From Microcystis aeruginosa NIES-843 (GTDB lineage Bacteria; Cyanobacteriota; Cyanobacteriia; Cyanobacteriales; Microcystaceae), in contig NC_010296.1 of assembly GCF_000010625.1 (NCBI RefSeq), forward strand, positions 3,300,001 through 3,332,000: a stretch of DNA of 32,000 nucleotides. Reading direction: 5' to 3'. Positions within the stretch are counted from its first letter, which is position 1, and every line of letters starts with the position of its first letter. The notes under the pieces are model-generated. The model was not told where the DNA came from. It made no database searches and saw nothing but the letters and a program-made list of their open reading frames with translations. The position numbers and the translations under genes were made by a program. Positions 7,895 through 28,297 of the stretch are shown here, in pieces.

Positions 7895-9884
7895 ACCCGC
7901 ATTTCTCACAAACTGAATTAAGAACCTAATTTGGAGGTTAAAAGTTGGTGTTTTTCAAAAATAAGAGAAACCCGCTTAGTTATCAAGGAATAATCTGACT
8001 AAACTAATCAAAAAATTCCTGAATTACTGGAAAAATTCCGTCAATTAGGGAAAATGTTCACGACAAAGTTAGCTGAATTTATAAGCAGCCATTTTTAAGA
8101 CTATTTAATGATCTTTGAAAACTCTTCAACTTATCCAGTTCCCGCTATCGCTTGAATTCTAGAGTAAGCTATCGCTAAAATATCTTGATAGGGACAAGAA
8201 CTGGCAATTGCGATTAAAATTCTTCTGACACTAACAGTAATTCTAGCTCCTAATTTAAGGAAATTAAGGCGAATTGTTCCCACTGTCGCTTTGGCAAAAG
8301 AAGTTTTAGCCAAACAATTTTGACGAAAAGCTTGCATTAAAACATAAGCCATTGATGACAACCAAAGTCTTAATTGATTACTCTCAAATGTCTGTGTCGA
8401 ATTCCGGTCAGCAAATAAGTCTAATTGTTGCTCTTTAATTCGATTTGACCTCTCACCTCTGGGGCAATATTTTTCAGTGTAAAGTTTAGATGGGGGAATC
8501 TTTGATGCAGGTAAAGAAGTCACAACGTGGCGAATTTTTACGCCCTCACTACCAGGACAAACTTTTGTCACCACTCTTCTTGAACGGCTCCAGGATTTTT
8601 GGGTTTGATAACATAGGGAACGATACCAAGTCGATTCTGGTACCAATTTCGCCAATTCTCCTAACTCTTCATCGGGAGAAAATAACGTCTCCATTAATTC
8701 AGTAACTGGCTGAAGTCTTTGCTCGTAATCTGCCTTAGCTTTCTCAATTACATCGGTCGCTCGTAATTTTAATTGACTATTCGTTGCCATTGCTAAAACA
8801 TAATCAACTCCTGCTTGACTTTCGCAAAATTTCATGATATCTTCACGGGAATAGGCACTATCTCCTCGTACTAATATCTGCGTATCTGACCATTTTTCTC
8901 GAATTATACCGATTATTCGCTGCAATTCTTCTAATGCTCCCCCAGCAGTATCTACATGAGAAGACCGGAGTTTAGCTACTAATAAATGATGCTCACAGAA
9001 AATATACAAAGGAGCATAACACACTCCTTTATAATAAGTATTGAAAAACGCTCCCTCTTGATTTCCATGCACTTGGTCATCGGTGACATCCATGTCTAAA
9101 ATAATTGGTTTCGGTGGCTTTTTGTAGGATTCTAGAAAGATGTCCACAAAAGCTTTTTCAATTTCTTTGGGGTTAGGCTCGATTTTATGGTAACGACTGT
9201 TCTCTTGATTGATGACTGTTTCCGGACAATATTCTAGTCGATTAATTGTACTTTTTCCCGCTAAATTTGCTTGGGCTGAGTCAATAAAATTTAGTTTTTT
9301 CAATGCTATTGCTAAAGCTGGAGCATGACGTAATTTATCATGATCATTGACATCCTCATATCCCAAAACTATCCCATAAACTCTTTGTGCGAGTAGTTCA
9401 TGAACTGAATAATCTAGATAGGATGAATTTCGATAATCTCGAAAACATTCGGCAAACCGAGCCGTTATTTTTAGCTTTTGGTCTAACTCTGCCATCAAAA
9501 TAATTCCTGCATCTGAGGTGATTTTTCCTCCCTCAAAATTAGCGATTACTTGTCTTCCATTGAGGTTTCCAAAATTTAATTGATTGAGTCGAGACTGGTC
9601 TGAACTAGGAGTCATAAACTTGACATACTTTAAATAGTTTTAATGATTAAATTATAGCAAGCTTTTGACTTCATTCTCTACTTAAAATTGAGACTTTATC
9701 AACTAATTAACCTAAAAATACGCATTTTAAATTTGTTCTTTTTTCAAGGTCTAATTGATGATGAGCTTAAGTTGAATCCTAACAACACACTGTCGTTTTT
9801 GCTACAAGGCGATCACCCAGTCAAAACCCAGATTTTGTAAGGCTTCGGGGGTTGGTGATCGTACTTTTTGTGAGAAATGCGGGT
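7895..9884 (-). mobile_element. IS1380-family insertion sequence (~1.99 kb)
   Basis: 18-bp perfect terminal inverted repeat: ACCCGCATTTCTCACAAA at 7895-7912 and its complement at 9867-9884. Flanking TCCT/CCT direct repeat (7891-7894 and 9884-9887). One transposase ORF. Confidence 0.8.
8131..9615 (-). CDS. IS1380-family DDE transposase (494 aa)
   Basis: N-terminal GRQVIANFEGGKITSDAGIILMAELDQKLKI, then ILDMDVTDDQVHGNQEGAFFNTYYKGVCYAPLYIF and ILVRGDSAYSRED. These match my recollection of IS1380-family signatures. Confidence 0.88.
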   Translation of the reverse strand: MTPSSDQSRLNQLNFGNLNGRQVIANFEGGKITSDAGIILMAELDQKLKITARFAECFRDYRNSSYLDYSVHELLAQRVYGIVLGYEDVNDHDKLRHAPALAIALKKLNFIDSAQANLAGKSTINRLEYCPETVINQENSRYHKIEPNPKEIEKAFVDIFLESYKKPPKPIILDMDVTDDQVHGNQEGAFFNTYYKGVCYAPLYIFCEHHLLVAKLRSSHVDTAGGALEELQRIIGIIREKWSDTQILVRGDSAYSREDIMKFCESQAGVDYVLAMATNSQLKLRATDVIEKAKADYEQRLQPVTELMETLFSPDEELGELAKLVPESTWYRSLCYQTQKSWSRSRRVVTKVCPGSEGVKIRHVVTSLPASKIPPSKLYTEKYCPRGERSNRIKEQQLDLFADRNSTQTFESNQLRLWLSSMAYVLMQAFRQNCLAKTSFAKATVGTIRLNFLKLGARITVSVRRILIAIASSCPYQDILAIAYSRIQAIAGTG

Positions 9885-20602: not shown

Positions 20603-22588
20603 ATGATTTTTACTGAATTAGTTTTGCAAAATTTCGGTCCCTACGCCGGTCGTCAAGTGATTAATTTACGTCCCGAAAAAGACAACAATCCCTGTCCGAT
20701 TATCCTTTTGGGAGGCATGAATGGCGGCGGTAAAACTACTTTAATGGATGCGATTCGTTTGGCTTTGTACGGTGCGCGGGCAAAGTGTTCTACTCGCAAT
20801 AATTTAAGTTATGCCGAGTTTCTCAGTCAAGCAGTTAATAATCAAGCTTCCCTCATCGATCAAGCTAGAATTGAACTGGCTTTTGAACATCTAGTTAATG
20901 AACAATGGCGACAATATCGTATCGTTAGATACTGGACAAAACAGCCCAAAGATGGTAGGGATACCCTCGGTATTTTAGATGAAGATTGGCCCGATCCCGC
21001 CTTAGCTAATACTTGGGATGAATATATTGAAACTTTATTACCTTTGGGTATTTCTAACCTCTTTTTATTTGATGGGGAACAGGTAAAAGAATTGGCAGAA
21101 CAGGATGTACCTCCTGACAGCGTTAAGGATTCGATGCAGACTTTATTAGGGTTAGAATTAGCGGAAAGATTAGCAGTTGATCTCGATATCTTAGCTAGTC
21201 GCAAGCGCCGGTTATTAGCAGCAGAAAATGAACTGGCAACTATTGAAGCTATCGAGAAAAAATTAGCTCAGTACCAAGAAGATTTAGAATTGGCTAGACA
21301 AGAGATGGAAACTCAACAAAAAAATTTAGATTTGGTTAGAAATGATTTTGATGCAGTCTCGGATAAATTTCGCATTGATGGCGGAAAAATTGCCGCCGAA
21401 AGAAGTCAATTAGAGAGCAGAAAAAAGGATTTAGATAAAAAGTTAGATAAACAGAGAGAGTATTTAGGTCAATTGGCGGGGGAATTTTTACCATTAAAGT
21501 TAATTTTTCCTCTCCTAGAAGCGGCTAAAATTCAGGGAGAAAAAGAGCTAAAATTTCAATCGTCTCAAGTCGCTCAATCGGTTTTAGAATCCAGAGATAA
21601 AAAGTTACTTGCTTATTTAGAACAACTGAATTTAACTTTAGAACAATTAGACAATATTAGAGAATTTTTACAGCAAGAAAATCAGTTTTTAGCTGAGGAT
21701 AGCGATTCTTTGATTACTCCTTACTTAGATTTAGACGAGGAGGCGATCAAGTTATTAAATCGAGTCTTAACCCATCAACTACCGGCACAAATTAACCTCG
21801 CTCATCAAGCAATAGAACAATTAAGAAATCTGGAAGCTGACTTAGATAATTTAGAGCGAGAATTAGCAGTAGCAGCCTCTCCCGAAGAATACGAAACCCT
21901 GAGTAATAACTTAAAAACCGCTCAGAAAAAGTATCTAAATGCTCAAGCGGAATACGAGCAAAGCCACAAAAATTATGAGGAAATCAAAAAGAAAATTGAG
22001 AAAACTAAAAAAGAATTATTTGCCTATAGTGAGAAAGCTTTAGAATCGCAAAGTAACGAACATATCGTCAATGCTATTGTCAAAGCACAGCAAACTTTAA
22101 AATTATTTAAAGAACGCTTAACTTTAAAAAAATTAAATAGATTAGAGGGAGAAGTGGCGGAATGTTTTCGTTATTTATTGCATAAGTCCGATCTGGTGCA
22201 GAAAATAGCGATCGATGCTGATACTTTTGGTCTATCTCTCTTTGGTCCCGATGGACAAAATGTGCCTAAACACCGTCTTTCTGCCGGAGAAAAACAACTA
22301 TTAGCGATCGCTTTTTTGTGGGGATTAGCGCGAGTCTCCGGACGAGATTTACCCATCGCTATCGATACACCCCTCGGACGTTTAGATTCTTCCCATCGCC
22401 ATAATTTAGTTGAACGTTATTTTCCCGCCGCTTCCTCTCAAGTCATCCTCCTTTCTACCGATACAGAAATTGGACAAAATGAGCTACTCTTATTAGAAGA
22501 ACAGGAAGTAATCGCCAGAAAATACCTGCTAGAATATAATTCCCAACAACGTCAAACTACTATTCACCCCGATCGCTACTTTTGGTAA
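20603..22588 (+). CDS. dndD: DNA phosphorothioation-system SMC-like ATPase DndD
   Basis: MIFTELVLQNFGPYAGRQVINLRP...PIILLGGMNGGGKTTLMDAIRLALYG (Walker A), a long central coiled coil, and C-terminal LSAGEKQLLAIAFLWGLARVSGRDLPIAIDTPLGRLDSSHRHNLVERYFP...VILLSTDTEI. This matches the DndD pattern I recall. Confidence 0.85.
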   Translation: MIFTELVLQNFGPYAGRQVINLRPEKDNNPCPIILLGGMNGGGKTTLMDAIRLALYGARAKCSTRNNLSYAEFLSQAVNNQASLIDQARIELAFEHLVNEQWRQYRIVRYWTKQPKDGRDTLGILDEDWPDPALANTWDEYIETLLPLGISNLFLFDGEQVKELAEQDVPPDSVKDSMQTLLGLELAERLAVDLDILASRKRRLLAAENELATIEAIEKKLAQYQEDLELARQEMETQQKNLDLVRNDFDAVSDKFRIDGGKIAAERSQLESRKKDLDKKLDKQREYLGQLAGEFLPLKLIFPLLEAAKIQGEKELKFQSSQVAQSVLESRDKKLLAYLEQLNLTLEQLDNIREFLQQENQFLAEDSDSLITPYLDLDEEAIKLLNRVLTHQLPAQINLAHQAIEQLRNLEADLDNLERELAVAASPEEYETLSNNLKTAQKKYLNAQAEYEQSHKNYEEIKKKIEKTKKELFAYSEKALESQSNEHIVNAIVKAQQTLKLFKERLTLKKLNRLEGEVAECFRYLLHKSDLVQKIAIDADTFGLSLFGPDGQNVPKHRLSAGEKQLLAIAFLWGLARVSGRDLPIAIDTPLGRLDSSHRHNLVERYFPAASSQVILLSTDTEIGQNELLLLEEQEVIARKYLLEYNSQQRQTTIHPDRYFW

Positions 22589-22646
22589 GATTATGACCGA
22601 GATAAATTCCCAAAAAATTCTCGCCCAATTAACTTGAGACATTGAA

Positions 22647-22666
22647 TCAGTTATCAGTTATCAGTT
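22647..22666. repeat. TCAGTTA heptamer tract (2.9 units) in the dndD-dndE spacer
   Basis: TCAGTTA TCAGTTA TCAGTT. It is the reverse complement of the TAACTGA x5 tract at 29507-29541. Confidence 0.6.
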
Positions 22667-22779
22667 CACTGTTTACCGATCACTGAAAAAAAGCTCCCCA
22701 CTTCCCACTCTCCTATTAAACAGGATTGAGAATGACTAACTATTTTCTCATCAGTCAGAGCGAGGTAAAATTATAGATT

Positions 22780-23178
22780 ATGGAATCACCGATCGAACGT
22801 TTTCGACTATCTCAAACCGCCAAAGATAGCCTAATAAAATTAAAACGCTACACCAAAATTGACCAATGGAATATCCTCTGTCGTTGGGCTTTTTGTCGTT
22901 CCCTTGCTGAACCGAGTCTCCCCTCTCCCGTTCCCATTCCTGCCGATAGCAATGTAGAATTATCCTGGAAAGTATTCGGGGGAGAAATGGCCGATATTTT
23001 CTTAATTGCCCTCAAACAACGTTGTCATCAAGACGGATTAGGAACCGATAAAGAAACTCTAACTCAACAATTTCGCTTACATTTACATCGCGGGATCGGT
23101 TATCTTGCTGGGGATACCAAGCTAAAAAAAATCGATAATTTAATCGAATTAGAGAGAGAAAGTCTCAGAGAATCTTAA
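22780..23178 (+). CDS. dndE: DNA sulfur modification protein DndE
   Basis: RFRLSQTAKDSLIKLKRYTKIDQWNILCRWAFCRSL...NVELSWKVFGGEMADIFLIALKQRCHQDGL...FRLHLHRGIGYL follows the DndE pattern I recall. Located downstream of dndD. Confidence 0.75.
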   Translation: MESPIERFRLSQTAKDSLIKLKRYTKIDQWNILCRWAFCRSLAEPSLPSPVPIPADSNVELSWKVFGGEMADIFLIALKQRCHQDGLGTDKETLTQQFRLHLHRGIGYLAGDTKLKKIDNLIELERESLRES

Positions 23179-23284: not shown

Positions 23285-24796
23285 ATGGAAAATTTAATCA
23301 AGGAAGCACTAAGCCATCGAGCGATTAATCATCCGTATTTACTGGCTTTAGAAAAAGGAGAATTTCAACATATTGATGAAGTTCTGACAGACTTTGCCAG
23401 TCAATACGGAGCTTATAGTGACTGGTTTTCCCGTTATTTAACAGCAGTAATATCAAAGCTAGAAAATCCCACTCATCGAAATCACCTGCTGAAGAACTTA
23501 GCTGAAGAAAACGGACATCTACACCATGAAGATCTCGAAGCAATCCGTAAATTAAGTATTAAGGACGAGTGGGTACAGGAAATTCCTCACCCACAGTTAT
23601 TCAAGCGTTTTCAAGAAGCGATGGGAGTAGATAGCACGCAAACGCCTTGTGTTGAAGTGGAAATCTGGCGTGAATCATTCTTATCGCTGCTCCAGAATGG
23701 AAGTTCACTCCAAGCTATTGGAGCGATAGGTTTAGGGACTGAATCTGTTGTTAAATTTATCTACAAACACATTATTGAAGCGATCAAAAAACATACATCA
23801 TTATCCTTGCAGCAATATGTATTTTTTCCTTTACATACAGAAGTGGAGGATGAACACAGCTTAACTTTAGTTGAGATTGCTAAAGAATTAGCCAGTGAAA
23901 GCGAACAGGCTGTTCTGGAATTACGGAAAGGAATGTTAAAAGCCTTAAATCTACGTGCTGCTTACTGGGACAATATGTATGAACGTGCGTTGGCACTAGA
24001 TAAATCTTTGACCTCATCAGACCAACTCAAGATTGTTACGCTTTTCACTAAAATGATTAAAGGCAAAAAGCTGTCTAATCAGGAACAGGAACTTTTATTG
24101 CATCAAATCAATGACGTGCGTATTGGATTGACGGAAGACTTATCTACTGTTCCAGTGGAAAAACTACTACTCGGATTGAGTTCACTTTTGCTATACGGGA
24201 TGCAAACGGAAAAGCACAAGGAAGAAGTTCTGAACTTGTTAAATTGGCTTGAAAATCCATCTGGTGAATGCCAATGCTCTCAAACAATATTAAGGCTTGC
24301 TTCACAACTTTACCATGATTTTCAAACGATGCGTCTCGGAGGCTTGACCGAAAAAATTAATGAACAAAAAAGCTTGACTCATGTGCAAGAAGGTAAAGAG
24401 CTTATTTCAACAATCAGCGCCAGCAACTTAGAAGCCTTATACAACAATAAGGTTGATAAACTCAATATTGATTTTAACGTATTTCGCCTGCCATTTGATC
24501 TAGAAGTTTTAGATGCACGCCTAGTTATAGTCAAGCCAGGAAAGGCGAATGAAATGCACAGACACGCACATGAAACCGTATTTGTATTTCTTCAGGGTCA
24601 AGGAAAAGTTATTGTTGATCAATACGAAAACGAGGTCGAACCAGGTACTTTTGCTGTTATTCCCCGTTGGTGTGTGCATCAATCTGTGAACTTAGGAGAA
24701 GAAGAGCTAATTTTTCTGGCGATAGCTGATTTTGGATTAACTGGTAAAAGTTTTATGGGTAATTACTTACACAGTGCTAGACTAAAACAAAATTAG
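23285..24796 (+). CDS. fusion protein: heme-oxygenase-like di-iron oxidase (HDO) domain plus C-terminal cupin (503 aa)
   Basis: aa 1-240: AINHPYLLALEKGEF...DFASQYGAYSDWFSRYL, E75-x-x-H78 (AEENGH), E153 (GTES), and H184-x3-E188-x2-H191 (HTEVEDEH). This is a four-helix di-iron ligand pattern of the 'iron-containing redox enzyme' family. aa ~400-485: cupin motifs G419-x5-H-x-H-x-HE and G454-x5-P-x-W-x2-H465-x3-N. Confidence 0.7.
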   Translation: MENLIKEALSHRAINHPYLLALEKGEFQHIDEVLTDFASQYGAYSDWFSRYLTAVISKLENPTHRNHLLKNLAEENGHLHHEDLEAIRKLSIKDEWVQEIPHPQLFKRFQEAMGVDSTQTPCVEVEIWRESFLSLLQNGSSLQAIGAIGLGTESVVKFIYKHIIEAIKKHTSLSLQQYVFFPLHTEVEDEHSLTLVEIAKELASESEQAVLELRKGMLKALNLRAAYWDNMYERALALDKSLTSSDQLKIVTLFTKMIKGKKLSNQEQELLLHQINDVRIGLTEDLSTVPVEKLLLGLSSLLLYGMQTEKHKEEVLNLLNWLENPSGECQCSQTILRLASQLYHDFQTMRLGGLTEKINEQKSLTHVQEGKELISTISASNLEALYNNKVDKLNIDFNVFRLPFDLEVLDARLVIVKPGKANEMHRHAHETVFVFLQGQGKVIVDQYENEVEPGTFAVIPRWCVHQSVNLGEEELIFLAIADFGLTGKSFMGNYLHSARLKQN

Positions 24797-24816
24797 TGCA
24801 AATTTTATCACGTTAG

Positions 24817-25584
24817 ATGGGTATGAAAGCAACACAAGAAACCAAAAAACTTTACGACGAAAGCGCAGGAGACTGGAAACGAGTAGAACCGATTTTGCTT
24901 TCTGATTACTCCGCACGTCCCTTTGTCATTGATTTATGTGAACCGATTGTCAACAAGAATATATTAGATCTAGGCTGTGGGGAAGGTTATGTAGGAAGAG
25001 AGTTAATTAACCGAGGCGCTCAATCTGTTCATGGGATTGATATTTCATCGCAAATGATCGAGCAGGCCTTGATTCAAAAAAACGAGCATCAGATTATTAA
25101 TGCTTCCTATGAAGCTGGTGATATTCGTGATTTTGCGGTCACTGAGTCCGAACAATACGATTTAGTTCTGGCTATGTTTCTGTTCAACTACTTAAATGTT
25201 TCAGAAACTATTAGCACGATGCAGAAAGCCTACCAACTTTTGAAATTCGGTGGCTATTTCCTGTTCGCCGTCCCCCATCCCTCTTTACCTTTTCTGAAAA
25301 AAGATAAGTTTCCCTTTTATTTTAAACCGAAAGCTGGCTATTTTTCCGGACGCAATCAATTATTCCCCGGTGAGATTTGGCGCCGAGATAGAAAAGCCGT
25401 CGCCGTGCAATGTGTTCATAAAACTATGGAAGATTACTTCACATCTCTTCGTTTAGCAGCCTTCACAAAAATGCCAGAAGTTTATGAACTAAAAATTAAT
25501 CAGGAACATTTAGAACTAGACCCAGAATTTTTTACTCCGCTCATTGACCTTCCCCTTCACGTTGCTTTCAAAATTCAAAAATGA
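24817..25584 (+). CDS. class I SAM-dependent methyltransferase (255 aa)
   Basis: Motif I ILDLGCGEGYVG, post-I HGIDIS, and motif II/III YDLVLAMFLFNYL...LKFGGYFLFAVP. Starts 20 nt after the upstream gene. Confidence 0.85.
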   Translation: MGMKATQETKKLYDESAGDWKRVEPILLSDYSARPFVIDLCEPIVNKNILDLGCGEGYVGRELINRGAQSVHGIDISSQMIEQALIQKNEHQIINASYEAGDIRDFAVTESEQYDLVLAMFLFNYLNVSETISTMQKAYQLLKFGGYFLFAVPHPSLPFLKKDKFPFYFKPKAGYFSGRNQLFPGEIWRRDRKAVAVQCVHKTMEDYFTSLRLAAFTKMPEVYELKINQEHLELDPEFFTPLIDLPLHVAFKIQK

Positions 25585-26498
25585 TTAGACCAATTTTTGA
25601 TCCTAATATTTCATTACTGACTTGGAAAAAATTGCCTGATCCTTCTCAACTATTTTTTCATGTACCAGAATCATTAGTCTCAGATTTACTAAAAAGAAGC
25701 AATCACAAATGGCTTGAAAAACCCAACGAAATAGGACAGGAAACAGTCAATGAAAATCTTGATTTTTTCCTACCATTTCGTGAGAAATTGCTCCAGAAAC
25801 CAGGCATAATTATTTTCCGATTAGAACCGGAATTAACAGAAATAGAAATGCGGTTAATTTATGCTTTTATTTCTCGCATTTTTGGACTGCTAAACCACCG
25901 CTATGGCTATTTTTTTGATGTAATCGATCGAGGAATGGATTACACTAAAAAAGCTATACCCGTTTCGATGACGAATGCAGAAACTGGCTATCATACCGAT
26001 AGTACAGCCAAAAACTACTTCCCTGATTTTGTTGGCTTACTGTGTCTTGCTGCCGCGGATGAGGGAGGAGATTCCCTGGTAGTAAACGCCGCCAATTTGT
26101 ATCAATATTTCTGGCAACACCATACAGACCTAGTTCCCTATCTTTACGAACCTTTGGCGCGCGATGTGATTACACCTGGAGAGATTAATTCTCAAGAAGC
26201 TATTCAAAAGAATAATTTCCCCTTATTCTCAGCCGATTCTCAGGGTCTGGTTTTTCGTTATATGCGGTACTGGATTGAAGTCGCTTACTCCAAACTGGAA
26301 ATAGCGCAACCGGAAGCTATCACAAAAACACTCGACATCATCGACGACTTTTTTTCAAAACCAGAAAATACAGTCCGCTTCAAAATGAAAAAAGGTGATG
26401 TATTTTACATTAATAATCGCTTTTTATGCCACAATAGAACCGCTTTTAAAAATTCAGGAAAACCCCGACAGATGGTCCGTAGTTGGATTAACCTTTAA
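25581..26498 (+). CDS. TauD/TfdA (clavaminate-synthase-like) Fe(II)/2-oxoglutarate oxygenase (305 aa)
   Basis: H-x-D facial-triad motif in GYHTDST, a distal His in FLCHNRTAF, and an Arg near the C-terminus (RQMVRSW). ATGA overlap with the methyltransferase gene. Confidence 0.78.
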   Translation: MIRPIFDPNISLLTWKKLPDPSQLFFHVPESLVSDLLKRSNHKWLEKPNEIGQETVNENLDFFLPFREKLLQKPGIIIFRLEPELTEIEMRLIYAFISRIFGLLNHRYGYFFDVIDRGMDYTKKAIPVSMTNAETGYHTDSTAKNYFPDFVGLLCLAAADEGGDSLVVNAANLYQYFWQHHTDLVPYLYEPLARDVITPGEINSQEAIQKNNFPLFSADSQGLVFRYMRYWIEVAYSKLEIAQPEAITKTLDIIDDFFSKPENTVRFKMKKGDVFYINNRFLCHNRTAFKNSGKPRQMVRSWINL

Positions 26499-26782: not shown

Positions 26783-28297
26783 TTAAAAAACTTTCGGTCG
26801 GCCTAAAGTAGTGATATAGATAACTGCTTCATCGGAGGGAATTCCTAACACTTCATTAACTTGATCATCAAAAAAACCACCGATACCACTAACCCCTAAC
26901 CCCAGATGAATAGCCGCTAAATTTAATCTCTGTCCCAAATGTCCCGCATCTGCATGAAGATAACGATAAACTCGATCGCCATATTTAGCCACTGCTTTTG
27001 ACAGATCCGCCGTATGAAAAACCACAGCGGCCGCATCCCGTCCCAAATCCTGACCTAAACAGAGATAATGTAACTCTTGCCGGAAATTTTTAAAGCGAAT
27101 TTGCCGCAATTCTTGGGCTTTAGGAGCATAATAATAACAGCCTTCCTCTAATCCAGTTACTGCCGAAACAGCGATAAAAGTTTCCAATAAATCTAGATCG
27201 AAATAATCGGGATTGGGATCGAGATTTTGGCCGGCATAATCTTGGGGTTGATAGGTGAAATGCAGCAGCGCTCGCAATTCGTCTAAACTGAGACTAGCAC
27301 CACTATAAGCGCGGGTAGATCTGCGTTTAAGAATCGTACTTTCGAGAGCGATTAAATCTTCCCCCCAATTGACGGGACGGGATGTCACGGAAACTTTTAG
27401 ACAAAAAGGAAAATTATATTTATCTTCCCAATTAGAGGGGGTAACAGTTGCTTCTATCTTCTCATCTGTAGCTATGATAGTGGCTCGGTGTAGGGAGTTT
27501 AATAATTCTCCCTCGGGAATTTCGGGATAAAGAGTCGTGGTTGCCGAAGGGAGTGCCGTGGTACTATGGGGGAGATTTTGCCGGATATTGAGCAGATCTG
27601 CCAAAGGAATCACCGTCATGACACTTTCCTTCTCGGAATCGAGATAAAGCAATTCATTCATCTGGATATCGTTAAAACCACCGATTAAATGGGCGCGATA
27701 GTCATTAATCGAGGCTGATAACTCAATATTGCCTAATAAATGCCCTGTATCGAGGAAAATACGCCGATAAGCTCGATCTTCGTAGCGCCAAGCGGACCGA
27801 TAAAAAATGGCACTGGTAACTACAGCGATATCGGTATTTTCTAAAACAGGATTCCAGAAACAAGCAGATTGTAGGTTGGTCCAGACATCACTTTCCCAGA
27901 ATAAAAGCAGCGAGTGACTTTGACCTTGGTAACTGTAGAGACCGGCGGGTAAAAATTCCGTGCCACGGGAGATCAGATAGACCTCGGCGGGGTATAATCC
28001 ACCAGCAGAGGGTGCGGAACGTAGGTACAAGGGACTCCCCATAGTGGCGATTTTGGCAGTTAACCCATAGCTACAGCCCAAAATTCGCGATATACGTCGC
28101 CAAAAGTCTCCTTTTTGGGGAACTGTTTGACGGGAGAGGTAGGGTTTGAGATCGAAAGTCTGACCGATTTTGTATTCTTTGAAGGGATGGGGTTGTTGAC
28201 TCCAATCAAGACCTTTACTTTTTGAGGCGATCGTCTGGGGGTCGTATTTGGTCCGCTCGTGGTAGTATTGGGCGATCGAGATTGGCTGATCTGGCAT
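26783..28297 (-). CDS. SagB/ThcOx-type dehydrogenase with tandem nitroreductase-like domains (504 aa)
   Basis: N-terminal YYHERTKYDP...QPHPFKEY, RSAPSAGGLYPAEVY in domain 1, and RRSTRAY...LHADAGHLGQRLNLAA...GVSGIGGFFDD in domain 2. Confidence 0.8.
   Translation of the reverse strand: MPDQPISIAQYYHERTKYDPQTIASKSKGLDWSQQPHPFKEYKIGQTFDLKPYLSRQTVPQKGDFWRRISRILGCSYGLTAKIATMGSPLYLRSAPSAGGLYPAEVYLISRGTEFLPAGLYSYQGQSHSLLLFWESDVWTNLQSACFWNPVLENTDIAVVTSAIFYRSAWRYEDRAYRRIFLDTGHLLGNIELSASINDYRAHLIGGFNDIQMNELLYLDSEKESVMTVIPLADLLNIRQNLPHSTTALPSATTTLYPEIPEGELLNSLHRATIIATDEKIEATVTPSNWEDKYNFPFCLKVSVTSRPVNWGEDLIALESTILKRRSTRAYSGASLSLDELRALLHFTYQPQDYAGQNLDPNPDYFDLDLLETFIAVSAVTGLEEGCYYYAPKAQELRQIRFKNFRQELHYLCLGQDLGRDAAAVVFHTADLSKAVAKYGDRVYRYLHADAGHLGQRLNLAAIHLGLGVSGIGGFFDDQVNEVLGIPSDEAVIYITTLGRPKVF

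What the first reader, a model, noticed from the sequence alone, without database searches (positions are those of the whole stretch)
23285..24796. HDO-cupin fusion with a domain order different from SznF
Motifs read directly from the translation are as follows.
- E75-N-G-H78, E153 and H184-TEV-E188-DE-H191 form a carboxylate/His pattern spaced as in four-helix-bundle di-iron HDO enzymes.
- The region around aa 419-469 carries both cupin motifs: GKANEMHRHAHE...G and GTFAVIPRWCVHQSVN, a 3-His/1-Glu-type metal site.

The HDO domain is N-terminal. A ~160-aa helical region (aa 241-400, Leu/Lys/Glu-rich) separates it from the cupin. As I recall, SznF instead has a helical dimerisation domain first, then the HDO, then the cupin.

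This would therefore be an independent or rearranged fusion of the same two catalytic modules. That argues for two-step chemistry on a single substrate passed between two metal sites.
Basis: partly seen in the sequence, partly recalled or inferred. Interest (0 to 1): 0.7.

Follow-up and report, generated by a model that had tools for sequence, protein, structure and literature searches.

The report
Fused di-iron oxidase and cupin enzyme
A Microcystis gene joins two neighbouring metal-enzyme genes, a di-iron oxidase and a cupin, into one protein inside a conserved enzyme cassette of unknown product that is shared with lake bacteria and protists and is unrelated to the streptozotocin enzyme SznF.

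Summary
The ORF at 23285-24796 (+) is real and encodes a 503-aa protein. It has an N-terminal heme-oxygenase-like di-metal oxidase (HDO), a helical region, and a C-terminal cupin.

H78 is not conserved; the conserved helix-1 histidine is H102.

The "linker" is a folded helical domain. It belongs to a roughly 253-aa helical+cupin protein that all 47 non-Microcystis genomes carrying this partner encode as a separate gene directly after the HDO gene. Microcystis fused the two genes by losing the stop codon.

The pair sits in a cassette with a SAM methyltransferase and a TauD-type Fe/2OG oxygenase, both present in the window. Other organisms fuse these parts in several ways: HDO-cupin, cupin-HDO, HDO-MT, and EF-hand-HDO-MT-TauD in protists.

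No sequence relation to SznF was found. The HDO is closest to CADD and BesC and lacks the extra Glu ligand of the N-oxygenases SznF and RohS.

So this is an independent fusion and a likely two-site enzyme, but SznF-like chemistry is not supported. The substrate is unknown. I rate it a new variant of a known kind, of moderate-to-high interest.

The parts
23285..24796 (+). Whole fused ORF, 503 aa: HDO, helical domain and cupin
   Evidence: ORF list and translation. Pfam PF14518 and PF07883. 93-99% identical 503-aa ORFs (511 aa in L015; cut to 468 aa by an insertion in L016) in 8 other Microcystis genome loci and one MAG labelled Dolichospermum. The 90%-identity cluster P0001 has 434 member sequences.
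23285..24019 (+). Heme-oxygenase-like di-metal oxidase (HDO) domain, aa 1-245. Proposed ligands are E75, H102, E153, H184, E188 and H191. The seventh-ligand position is F48/S49.
   Evidence: AlphaFold2 pLDDT >90. Foldseek best matches are CtCADD and BesC, TM 0.78-0.82. Profile versus PDB gives CADD 1.9e-13 and BesC 2.6e-13, with ligand-by-ligand alignment. Conservation. The seventh-ligand rule comes from PMC13133933.
24020..24031 (+). Fusion junction, aa 246-249. It sits where the closest unfused relatives have the HDO stop codon, one spacer codon and the cupin-gene start.
   Evidence: Translations of L019 and L053 read '...LDAQLQNT*AMSALFKKSVKGKK' in one frame. The window reads '...LDKSLTSSDQLKIVTLFTKMIKGKK'.
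24020..24424 (+). Helical domain, aa 246-380, about five helices. It is the N-terminal domain of the ancestral stand-alone cupin protein, not a flexible linker.
   Evidence: Stand-alone proteins of about 253 aa align to aa 253-502 (P0070 and others). Separate helical+cupin ORFs occur in 47 loci. AlphaFold2 with a dedicated alignment gives pLDDT 86-96 for this part. There is no Pfam hit. No PDB fold match spans it among the 50 matches listed. It is not related to the HDO profile.
24425..24793 (+). Cupin_2 domain, aa 381-503. Invariant residues are N422, E423, H425, H427, H429, E430, P460-R461-W462, H465, Q466, N469 and D482.
   Evidence: Pfam. Alignments A4 and A5. AlphaFold2 beta-barrel. Closest solved relatives are gentisate 1,2-dioxygenases by sequence and TM1459 and Rru_A2000 by fold.
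24817..25584 (+). Class I SAM-dependent methyltransferase, 255 aa; cassette partner.
   Evidence: Pfam. 50% identical to the MT next to the HDO in a Fuerstiella MAG. Adjacent to the HDO in 23 non-Microcystis loci. Fused to the HDO in P0004 and P0067 and in protist proteins. Nearest solved structures are ToxA and phosphoethanolamine N-methyltransferases.
25581..26498 (+). TauD/TfdA-family Fe(II)/2-oxoglutarate oxygenase, 305 aa; overlaps the MT stop by 4 nt; cassette partner.
   Evidence: Pfam TauD 1.6e-24. 39% identical to the Fuerstiella orthologue. Co-located in 22 non-Microcystis loci. Fused with HDO and MT in P0103, P0138, P0195, P0164 and P0111. Nearest curated or solved relatives are TmpA, gamma-butyrobetaine dioxygenase, FrbJ and 7n7v.

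Best explanation
The ORF is a Microcystis-lineage in-frame fusion of two ancestrally separate, adjacent and translationally coupled genes. The fusion arose by loss of a stop codon.

The two ancestral genes are:
1. A roughly 245-aa heme-oxygenase-like di-metal oxidase of the CADD/BesC-like, six-ligand, substrate-triggered kind.
2. A roughly 253-aa protein with an N-terminal five-helix domain and a C-terminal mononuclear His-rich cupin.

The pair belongs to a mobile cassette found in aquatic bacteria and protists. The cassette also holds a SAM methyltransferase and a TauD-type Fe/2OG oxygenase. In some Bacteroidota it also holds a GNAT acetyltransferase and an FNR-type FAD/2Fe-2S reductase.

Proposed mechanism (inferred, not shown):
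- A small carboxylate-bearing, probably amino-acid-like substrate binds Fe1 of the HDO through its carboxylate.
- That binding triggers O2 activation at the di-iron site, giving C-H or C-C oxidation, or possibly heteroatom oxidation.
- The product passes to the cupin iron site for a second O2-dependent or rearrangement step.
- The methyltransferase and the Fe/2OG enzyme tailor the same scaffold by methylation and hydroxylation.
- Electrons come from a ferredoxin-type reductase.

Shown: the gene, the domains, ligand conservation, the fusion history, cassette conservation and the lack of relation to SznF. Inferred: metal content, substrate class, order of steps and any channelling.
For: Fusion history:
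- In the 47 non-Microcystis loci where the partner is present, it is a separate helical+cupin ORF directly after the HDO, typically with a -4 to +3 nt gap. No non-Microcystis locus has the two fused. All Microcystis loci have one 503-aa ORF.
- The junction lies exactly at the ancestral stop codon.

Domains:
- Identity and fold.
- Six HDO ligands mapped onto CADD.
- Invariant F48 sits at the seventh-ligand position, aligned to the BesC Leu. This fits the subgroup-2 rule in PMC13133933 and PMC7848743.
- The cupin His cluster is invariant across 20 diverse sequences.

Functional linkage:
- HDO-cupin fusions at 30-46% identity, cupin-HDO fusions, HDO-MT fusions and EF-hand-HDO-MT-TauD fusions exist.
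- Orthologous HDO-MT-TauD cassettes occur in Planctomycetota and Bacteroidota.
- A GNAT is adjacent in 21 loci in two different arrangements. An FNR-type reductase is adjacent in 7 loci.
Against: - No substrate, product or metal content is known for any member.
- The seventh-ligand rule is an empirical correlation from a handful of enzymes.
- Many cassettes lack the cupin (12 loci with room for it) and many lack MT and TauD (37 loci). The four enzymes therefore need not act on one substrate in every organism.
- pTM of the full model is only 0.52, so no inter-domain geometry or channel can be claimed.
Confidence: 0.6

Rival explanations
1. SznF-like logic. The adjacent methyltransferase N-methylates a guanidino or amino group. 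The HDO N-hydroxylates it. The cupin performs an oxidative rearrangement or N-N bond formation, giving an N-nitroso or diazeniumdiolate-type product.
For: The triad of MT, HDO and cupin matches SznE plus SznF (PMC7848743). The cupin has a probable 3-His site like that of SznF. HDO-like plus cupin gene pairs also occur in the fragin (ham) diazeniumdiolate cluster (PMC11659414).
Against: No SznF match in four PDB sequence searches. The seventh Glu ligand essential in SznF and RohS is replaced by the invariant F48. The HDO is closest to CADD and BesC. Many cassettes have HDO, MT and TauD without a cupin, or HDO and cupin without an MT. Homology of the MT to SznE was not tested. The 426 SznF homologues mined in PMC10849742 are described only in Streptomyces and Lentzea strains and NRPS/PKS contexts in the passages read.
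Confidence: 0.15
2. The cupin with its helical domain is a non-catalytic ligand-sensing or regulatory module that controls the HDO. It would be analogous to the cNMP-binding, EF-hand or globin domains fused to HDOs in sister lineages.
For: Related HDOs carry an N-terminal cNMP-binding domain (PF00027) in place of a cupin partner. Others carry EF-hands or a globin. Some relatives' cupins also score on the AraC ligand-binding model.
Against: The residues H425, H427, H429, E430 and H465, plus PRW and HQxxN, are invariant across diverse members, which is typical of a metal centre. The closest solved relatives are metal-dependent dioxygenases and Mn/Fe cupins. No DNA-binding domain is fused.
Confidence: 0.12
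3. An oxidative catabolic route for a methylated amine, sulfonate or phosphonate nutrient, similar to TmpA/TmpB or PhnY/PhnZ. The TauD-type enzyme hydroxylates next to the heteroatom. The di-iron HDO replaces the HD-domain oxygenase for C-P or C-X cleavage.
For: The nearest curated or solved relatives of the TauD-type enzyme are TmpA, gamma-butyrobetaine dioxygenase, FrbJ and 7n7v. The MT resembles phosphoethanolamine N-methyltransferases. The family is widespread in freshwater and marine bacteria. One HDO-cupin locus lies near phoX and a phosphate-binding protein gene.
Against: These similarities are weak (E 1e-12 to 1e-5). A methyltransferase is unusual in catabolism. No transporter is consistently linked. 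No HDO is known to act on phosphonates (my knowledge). EF-hand fusions in protists do not suggest nutrient scavenging.
Confidence: 0.08

Closest known systems
SznF (streptozotocin N-nitrosourea synthase, Streptomyces achromogenes)
   Same: One polypeptide that combines a heme-oxygenase-like di-iron domain with a C-terminal mononuclear cupin. The HDO precedes the cupin. A SAM methyltransferase is encoded nearby. According to a 2026 review it is the only characterised HDO with a cupin domain (PMC13108848).
   Different: No SznF match in four PDB sequence searches. SznF has its helical dimerisation domain at the N-terminus, whereas here the helical domain lies between the two and derives from the cupin partner. 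SznF has a seventh ligand Glu189, whereas here the position is Phe48. The cassette context is different, with a TauD-type oxygenase.
CADD (Chlamydia 4-aminobenzoate synthase) and BesC (4-chloro-allylglycine synthase), stand-alone HDOs
   Same: Best sequence matches (1.9e-13 and 2.6e-13) and best fold matches (TM 0.78-0.82) for aa 1-245. The same six-ligand set, and Phe or Leu at the seventh-ligand position.
   Different: Scores are far below the family cutoffs: TIGR04305 gives 60 bits against 200, and NF042919 gives 27 against 500. There is an insertion of about 20 aa between E75 and H102. The protein is partnered with or fused to a cupin, an MT and a TauD enzyme.
HamA (HDO-like, DUF3050) and HamB (cupin) of the fragin/valdiazen cluster
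   Same: An HDO-like gene and a cupin gene lie side by side in one operon (PMC11659414).
   Different: The window HDO scores only weakly on DUF3050 (25 bits; 9vwb E 0.006). The ham cluster is NRPS-based with an AurF-like N-oxygenase, and none of that is present here. The roles of HamA and HamB are themselves unresolved.
Gentisate/salicylate 1,2-dioxygenases and TM1459-type small cupins
   Same: Closest solved relatives of the cupin domain. The HxH...H metal motif aligns.
   Different: Those are bicupin ring-cleaving enzymes or minimal single cupins. Here the domain has extra invariant H429-E430 and PRW/HQxxN/DFGxT motifs and an N-terminal helical domain.

Membership tests
HDO superfamily (heme-oxygenase-like di-metal oxidases, PF14518) | Heme-oxygenase-like helical bundle fold | tested here: met
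   Pfam PF14518 scores 48.6 bits against a cutoff of 28.9. AlphaFold2 gives pLDDT >90 for aa 1-240. Foldseek gives TM 0.78-0.82 to CADD and BesC.
HDO superfamily (heme-oxygenase-like di-metal oxidases, PF14518) | Six conserved ligands: core a1 Glu and His, core a2 Glu, core a3 HxxxD/ExxH | tested here: met
E75, H102, E153, H184, E188 and H191 align to CADD E81, H88, E142, H174, D178 and H181 (CADD ligand numbering from memory). They are conserved in the family.
HDO superfamily (heme-oxygenase-like di-metal oxidases, PF14518) | Binds two metal ions and activates O2 | not testable with these tools
   Needs metal analysis and spectroscopy.
SznF family (tridomain N-nitrosating enzymes) | Detectable sequence homology to the SznF HDO and cupin domains | tested here: not met
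   SznF was absent from PDB searches with the protein (E<=1), the HDO profile (E<=10) and relative P0122 (E<=1), and from the 60 of 88 cupin-profile matches listed. It was not in the top 50 Foldseek hits.
SznF family (tridomain N-nitrosating enzymes) | N-terminal dimerisation domain, then central HDO, then C-terminal cupin | tested here: not met
   Here the HDO starts at residue 1 and the helical domain lies between the HDO and the cupin. SznF architecture is taken from PMC7848743.
SznF family (tridomain N-nitrosating enzymes) | Seventh ligand Glu on aux helix a2, about 26 residues before the core a1 Glu (SznF E189, RohS E98) | tested here: not met
   The positions 26 and 27 residues before E75 are S49 and F48. 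F48 is invariant and aligns with the BesC Leu. The AlphaFold2 model shows an uninterrupted helix at aa 30-58.
SznF family (tridomain N-nitrosating enzymes) | 3-His mononuclear cupin site | tested here: inconclusive
   H425, H427 and H465 are in motif positions and invariant, with T431 at the canonical Glu position. H429 and E430 are also invariant and could be ligands.
SznF family (tridomain N-nitrosating enzymes) | Partner N-methyltransferase homologous to SznE | not tested
   An MT is adjacent, but no SznE sequence was available for comparison.
Cupin superfamily (PF07883 Cupin_2) | Two cupin motifs on a double-stranded beta-helix | tested here: met
   Pfam scores 52.7 bits against a cutoff of 27.2. 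Motif 1 is G-x5-HxH and motif 2 is G-x5-PxW-x2-H-x3-N. The beta-barrel appears in the AlphaFold2 models.
CADD family (TIGR04305) | Score at or above the curated cutoff | tested here: not met
   60.3 bits against a cutoff of 200.
BesC (NF042919) | Score at or above the curated cutoff | tested here: not met
   26.7 bits against a cutoff of 500.

The most novel reading that the evidence does not exclude
The HDO, cupin, methyltransferase and Fe/2OG oxygenase (with a GNAT and a reductase in Bacteroidota) form a previously unrecognised, horizontally mobile pathway. It would make an unknown small oxidised and methylated metabolite in bloom-forming Microcystis, its freshwater Bacteroidota neighbours, marine Planctomycetota and Verrucomicrobiota, and protists. 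In those other lineages the same enzymes are welded into one giant protein regulated by Ca2+ or cNMP. The HDO-cupin pair would then be a second, independently evolved two-metallocentre enzyme whose chemistry differs from that of SznF.
Probability: 0.35. Interest if true: 0.8.

Novelty: new variant of a known kind. Interest (0 to 1): 0.6.

Why it matters
SznF is so far the only characterised HDO carrying a cupin domain. This family shows that the same pairing of folds evolved again, independently. It occurs as separate genes, in both fusion orders, and with an intervening helical domain. That gives a natural split-versus-fused series for studying how two metallocentres cooperate.

The cassette is common in aquatic bacteria: 711 representative clusters at E<=1e-3. 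It is carried by the main freshwater bloom cyanobacterium. It is 64-78% identical between Microcystis, Bacteroidota and Betaproteobacteria of the same lakes. It also recurs as multi-domain proteins in protists. Its product could therefore be an ecologically relevant metabolite that nobody has assigned.

Tried and rejected
- Defence-system role because of the dndD/dndE neighbours. PADLOC has no hit for the HDO-cupin or the TauD-type protein. The MT hit to mad2 is of generic MT-domain strength. No non-Microcystis locus carries dnd next to the cassette. Rejected.
- Helical region as a degenerate second HDO. hhalign probability is 4.5%. Rejected.
- Helical region as a disordered linker. Rejected after AlphaFold2 with a dedicated alignment gave pLDDT 86-96.
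- DMSP-pathway link to DsyGD. DsyD is an ureidoglycolate-lyase-like PF04115 domain, not this cupin (PMC11306096). No support.
- Pinning down 7n7v by literature search returned nothing.
- The search for related loci with the broad HDO alignment failed because no stretch was conserved enough. It was repeated with a tighter alignment.
- Promoter and terminator scans around the cassette were no better than shuffled sequence.
- GC content of the dnd-plus-cassette region (about 38-39%) is only slightly below its flanks. This is weak evidence for an island.
- A direct alignment to SznF was not possible because its sequence never surfaced in any search.
Full report
**Observation.** The window contains a 503-codon ORF at 23285..24796 on the + strand. 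Pfam assigns aa 36-224 to Haem_oxygenas_2 (PF14518, E 1.1e-12) and aa 413-480 to Cupin_2 (PF07883, E 3.5e-14). Both scores are above the curated cutoffs. An AlphaFold2 model built on 24 homologues gives pLDDT >90 for aa 1-240 (all helical), 80-90 for a beta-barrel at aa 385-481, and only about 50 in between.

**Metal ligands of the HDO.**
- A profile of 24 HDO-only homologues hits CADD (1rcw, 8va9) at 1.9e-13 and BesC (7twa) at 2.6e-13.
- In that alignment the CADD ligands E81, H88, E142, H174, D178 and H181 (numbering from memory) pair with window E75, H102, E153, H184, E188 and H191.
- H102 (motif IPHP), E74/E75, E153, H184 and H191 are invariant or nearly so. Position 188 is always Asp or Glu.
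The family has an insertion of about 20 residues between E75 and H102 relative to CADD.
- Foldseek ranks CtCADD and BesC first, with TM 0.78-0.82 over the target.

**Metal ligands of the cupin.**
- N422, E423, H425, H427, H429, E430, P460-R461-W462, H465, Q466, N469 and D482 are invariant in 20 diverse sequences.
- Spacing places T431 at the canonical Glu position of motif 1. The alignment to gentisate dioxygenase pairs H425 and H427 with its two motif-1 histidines.
- A 3-His site (H425/H427/H465) is therefore the most likely. H429 and E430 may be extra ligands or second-sphere residues. This is inference.
- I could not measure distances because model coordinates are not exposed.

**What the 'linker' is.**
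- An exhaustive HMMER search of 1.84 billion representative proteins found 711 relatives at E<=1e-3. Among them are stand-alone proteins of about 253 aa that align to aa 253-502 of the query, for example P0070 at 47% identity.
- A scan of one genome per species returned 80 loci. I called ORFs in all of them and mapped the window's pieces by BLAST.
- In nine loci the HDO, helical region and cupin are one ORF: eight Microcystis loci and one contig binned as Dolichospermum.
- The other 71 loci come from freshwater Flavobacteriales, Saprospiraceae, Crocinitomicaceae, Chitinophagaceae, Undibacterium, Curvibacter and a planctomycete. In all of them the HDO is a separate gene of about 245 aa.
- In 47 of those 71 loci a separate gene of about 253 aa for the helical+cupin protein follows directly. 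The gap is most often a 4-nt overlap and otherwise usually -1 to +3 nt.
- In the closest relatives (Saprospira-like L019 and L053; HDO 71-72% and cupin 77% identical) the two genes are in the same frame, separated by a stop codon and one codon: '...LDAQLQNT*AMSALFKKSVKGKK'. The window reads '...LDKSLTSSDQLKIVTLFTKMIKGKK'.
- The Microcystis protein is therefore a stop-codon-loss fusion, with the junction at aa 246-249.
- Re-modelling aa 246-503 with an alignment that covers the helical part raises its pLDDT to 86-96 and shows five helices packed before the barrel. It is a folded domain.
- The domain has no Pfam match. No PDB fold match spans it among the 50 matches listed. It has no relation to the HDO profile.

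**The cassette.**
- Downstream in the window lie a class I SAM methyltransferase (24817..25584) and a TauD/TfdA-family Fe/2OG oxygenase (25581..26498, 4-nt overlap).
- The same HDO-MT-TauD order occurs in a Fuerstiella MAG (MT 50% and TauD 39% identical) and in a JGI metagenome contig.
- Among the 71 non-Microcystis loci, 10 have cupin, MT and TauD. Twelve have MT and TauD without a cupin. Thirty-seven have the cupin only. Ten of the eleven loci with nothing further end within 600 nt of the HDO.
- Two more genes recur. A GNAT acetyltransferase lies next to the HDO in 21 loci in two different arrangements. An FNR-type FAD/NAD/2Fe-2S reductase lies directly after the cupin or the TauD gene in 7 loci. 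The reductase is a plausible electron donor for the di-iron site.

**Fusions in other organisms link the parts.**
- HDO-cupin with a short linker, 370-450 aa and 30-46% identical (P0009, P0115, P0122 and many others).
- Cupin-HDO (P0007, P0010).
- HDO-MT (P0004, P0067).
- (EF-hand-)HDO-MT-TauD in proteins of 960-1254 aa (EF-hand domains detected in P0103, P0138 and P0111), two of them from a eukaryotic transcriptome collection.
- HDO-cupin-globin (P0130) and cupin-P450 (P0157).
- cNMP-binding-HDO in Planctomycetota and Verrucomicrobiota.

**Relation to SznF.**
- SznF has an N-terminal dimerisation domain, a central HDO and a C-terminal cupin (PMC7848743). The two catalytic domains are thus in the same order as here, and only the helical domain differs in position and origin.
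- SznF structures are in the PDB, as the SznF papers describe. They were absent from the phmmer search with the whole protein (E<=1), the HDO profile (E<=10) and the shorter fusion P0122 (E<=1). They were also absent from the best 60 of 88 cupin-profile matches (E<=10) and from the top 50 Foldseek matches.
- The N-oxygenating HDOs SznF and RohS carry a seventh ligand, Glu189 or Glu98, on auxiliary helix 2, 26 residues before the core-helix-1 Glu. UndA and AetD have Phe there and BesC has Leu. Those enzymes use the substrate carboxylate as the seventh ligand and are 'substrate-triggered' (PMC13133933; PMC7848743).
- In the window the corresponding residues are F48 and S49. F48 is invariant in the full-length family alignment, nearly so among HDO-only relatives, and aligns with the BesC Leu. 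The model shows an uninterrupted helix at aa 30-58.
- By this rule the HDO belongs with the substrate-triggered group. That argues for a carboxylate-bearing substrate and against SznF-type guanidine N-hydroxylation. The rule rests on few enzymes, so this is a moderate argument, not a proof.

**Mechanism.** My best reading has four steps.
1. A small amino-acid-like carboxylate binds the HDO di-iron site and triggers O2 activation.
2. The oxidised product is processed at the cupin iron.
3. The methyltransferase and the Fe/2OG oxygenase modify the same scaffold.
4. A ferredoxin-type reductase supplies electrons.

The recurrent, independent fusions make functional coupling of the HDO with the cupin, and of the HDO with MT and TauD, very likely. 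The substrate, the product and the order of steps are inferred. The nearest relatives of the TauD-type enzyme are TmpA, gamma-butyrobetaine dioxygenase, FrbJ and 7n7v. The nearest relatives of the MT are ToxA and phosphoethanolamine N-methyltransferases. These hint at an N-methylated amine, betaine or phosphonate-like substrate, but at E values (1e-14 to 1e-5) too weak to build on. The rivals are SznF-like N-N chemistry, a regulatory cupin, and a catabolic C-X cleavage route. They are listed with their evidence in the rival explanations.

[quoted passage not shown] The 2021 survey of about 9,600 HDOs noted only the SznF cluster, among the predicted N-oxygenases, as long enough for a fusion. 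Searches combining heme-oxygenase-like and cupin with Microcystis, methyltransferase or TauD returned only SznF-related or unrelated papers. The library covers open-access papers only, so an unseen report cannot be excluded.

**Verdict.** The feature is real and non-random. 'Independent fusion' is supported, 'rearranged' is not, and SznF-like chemistry is disfavoured. It is a new variant of a known kind: an uncharacterised, widely distributed HDO/cupin system captured here at the moment of gene fusion. Interest is 0.6.

Noticed in passing
window 20603-23178 (+): dndD-like (661 aa; best PADLOC model PbeC at 929 bits, DndD at 762 bits) and dndE (132 aa) lie directly upstream of the cassette. No dndA or dndC is in the immediate neighbourhood; the next gene upstream, on the - strand, is a TPP enzyme. 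dndE is a conserved left neighbour of the cassette in 8 Microcystis genomes but in no other lineage.
   Followed up: partly
window 26783-28297 (-): A 504-aa protein with two nitroreductase-family stretches, convergent with the cassette. It is a conserved right neighbour in Microcystis only (97-98% identical in 8 loci).
   Followed up: partly
L017-L070 versus window 23285-26498: The cassette proteins are unusually similar across phyla that share lakes. Between Microcystis and Bacteroidota, Undibacterium or Curvibacter, the HDO is 62-73% identical, the cupin 60-78% and the MT 54-72%. The helical domain is only 24-41% identical. This suggests horizontal transfer within freshwater bloom communities. 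GC content of the window's dnd-plus-cassette stretch is about 38-39%, against 42-47% in the flanks.
   Followed up: partly
P0103, P0138, P0195, P0164, P0110/P0111: Giant proteins of 960-1254 aa fuse HDO, methyltransferase and TauD domains in the operon order, with N-terminal EF-hands detected in P0103, P0138 and P0110/P0111. P0110 is a shorter isoform in which Pfam finds no TauD domain. P0110 and P0111 come from a eukaryotic transcriptome collection (EukProt). The species is not known.
   Followed up: partly
P0130 and P0157; P0013, P0018 and others: Other accessory fusions occur in the family: HDO-cupin-globin (528 aa), helical+cupin-cytochrome P450 (798 aa), and an N-terminal cNMP-binding domain on the HDO in Planctomycetota and Verrucomicrobiota. 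These hint at regulated or redox-coupled activity.
   Followed up: no
L016:6001-6925 (Microcystis sp. BLCC-F210 chromosome): The HDO coding region is interrupted by about 170 nt after codon 43. The longest ORF is left at 468 aa with a later start. This is possibly a small insertion element.
   Followed up: no
L014 (MAG labelled Dolichospermum, 8.1-kb contig): It carries the fused Microcystis-type cassette at 86-95% identity (HDO 94%, helical 86%, cupin 93%, MT 95%, TauD 88%). This is either a binning error or a recent transfer between bloom cyanobacteria.
   Followed up: no
window 8131-9615 (-): An intact DDE transposase (DDE_Tnp_1_4, E 1e-152), typical of insertion-sequence-rich Microcystis genomes.
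   Followed up: no
window 24817-25584 (+): The cassette methyltransferase scores 72 bits on the PADLOC mad2 model of the methylation-associated defence system. This is about the same as its generic Pfam MT-domain scores, so it is probably only fold-level similarity.
   Followed up: partly
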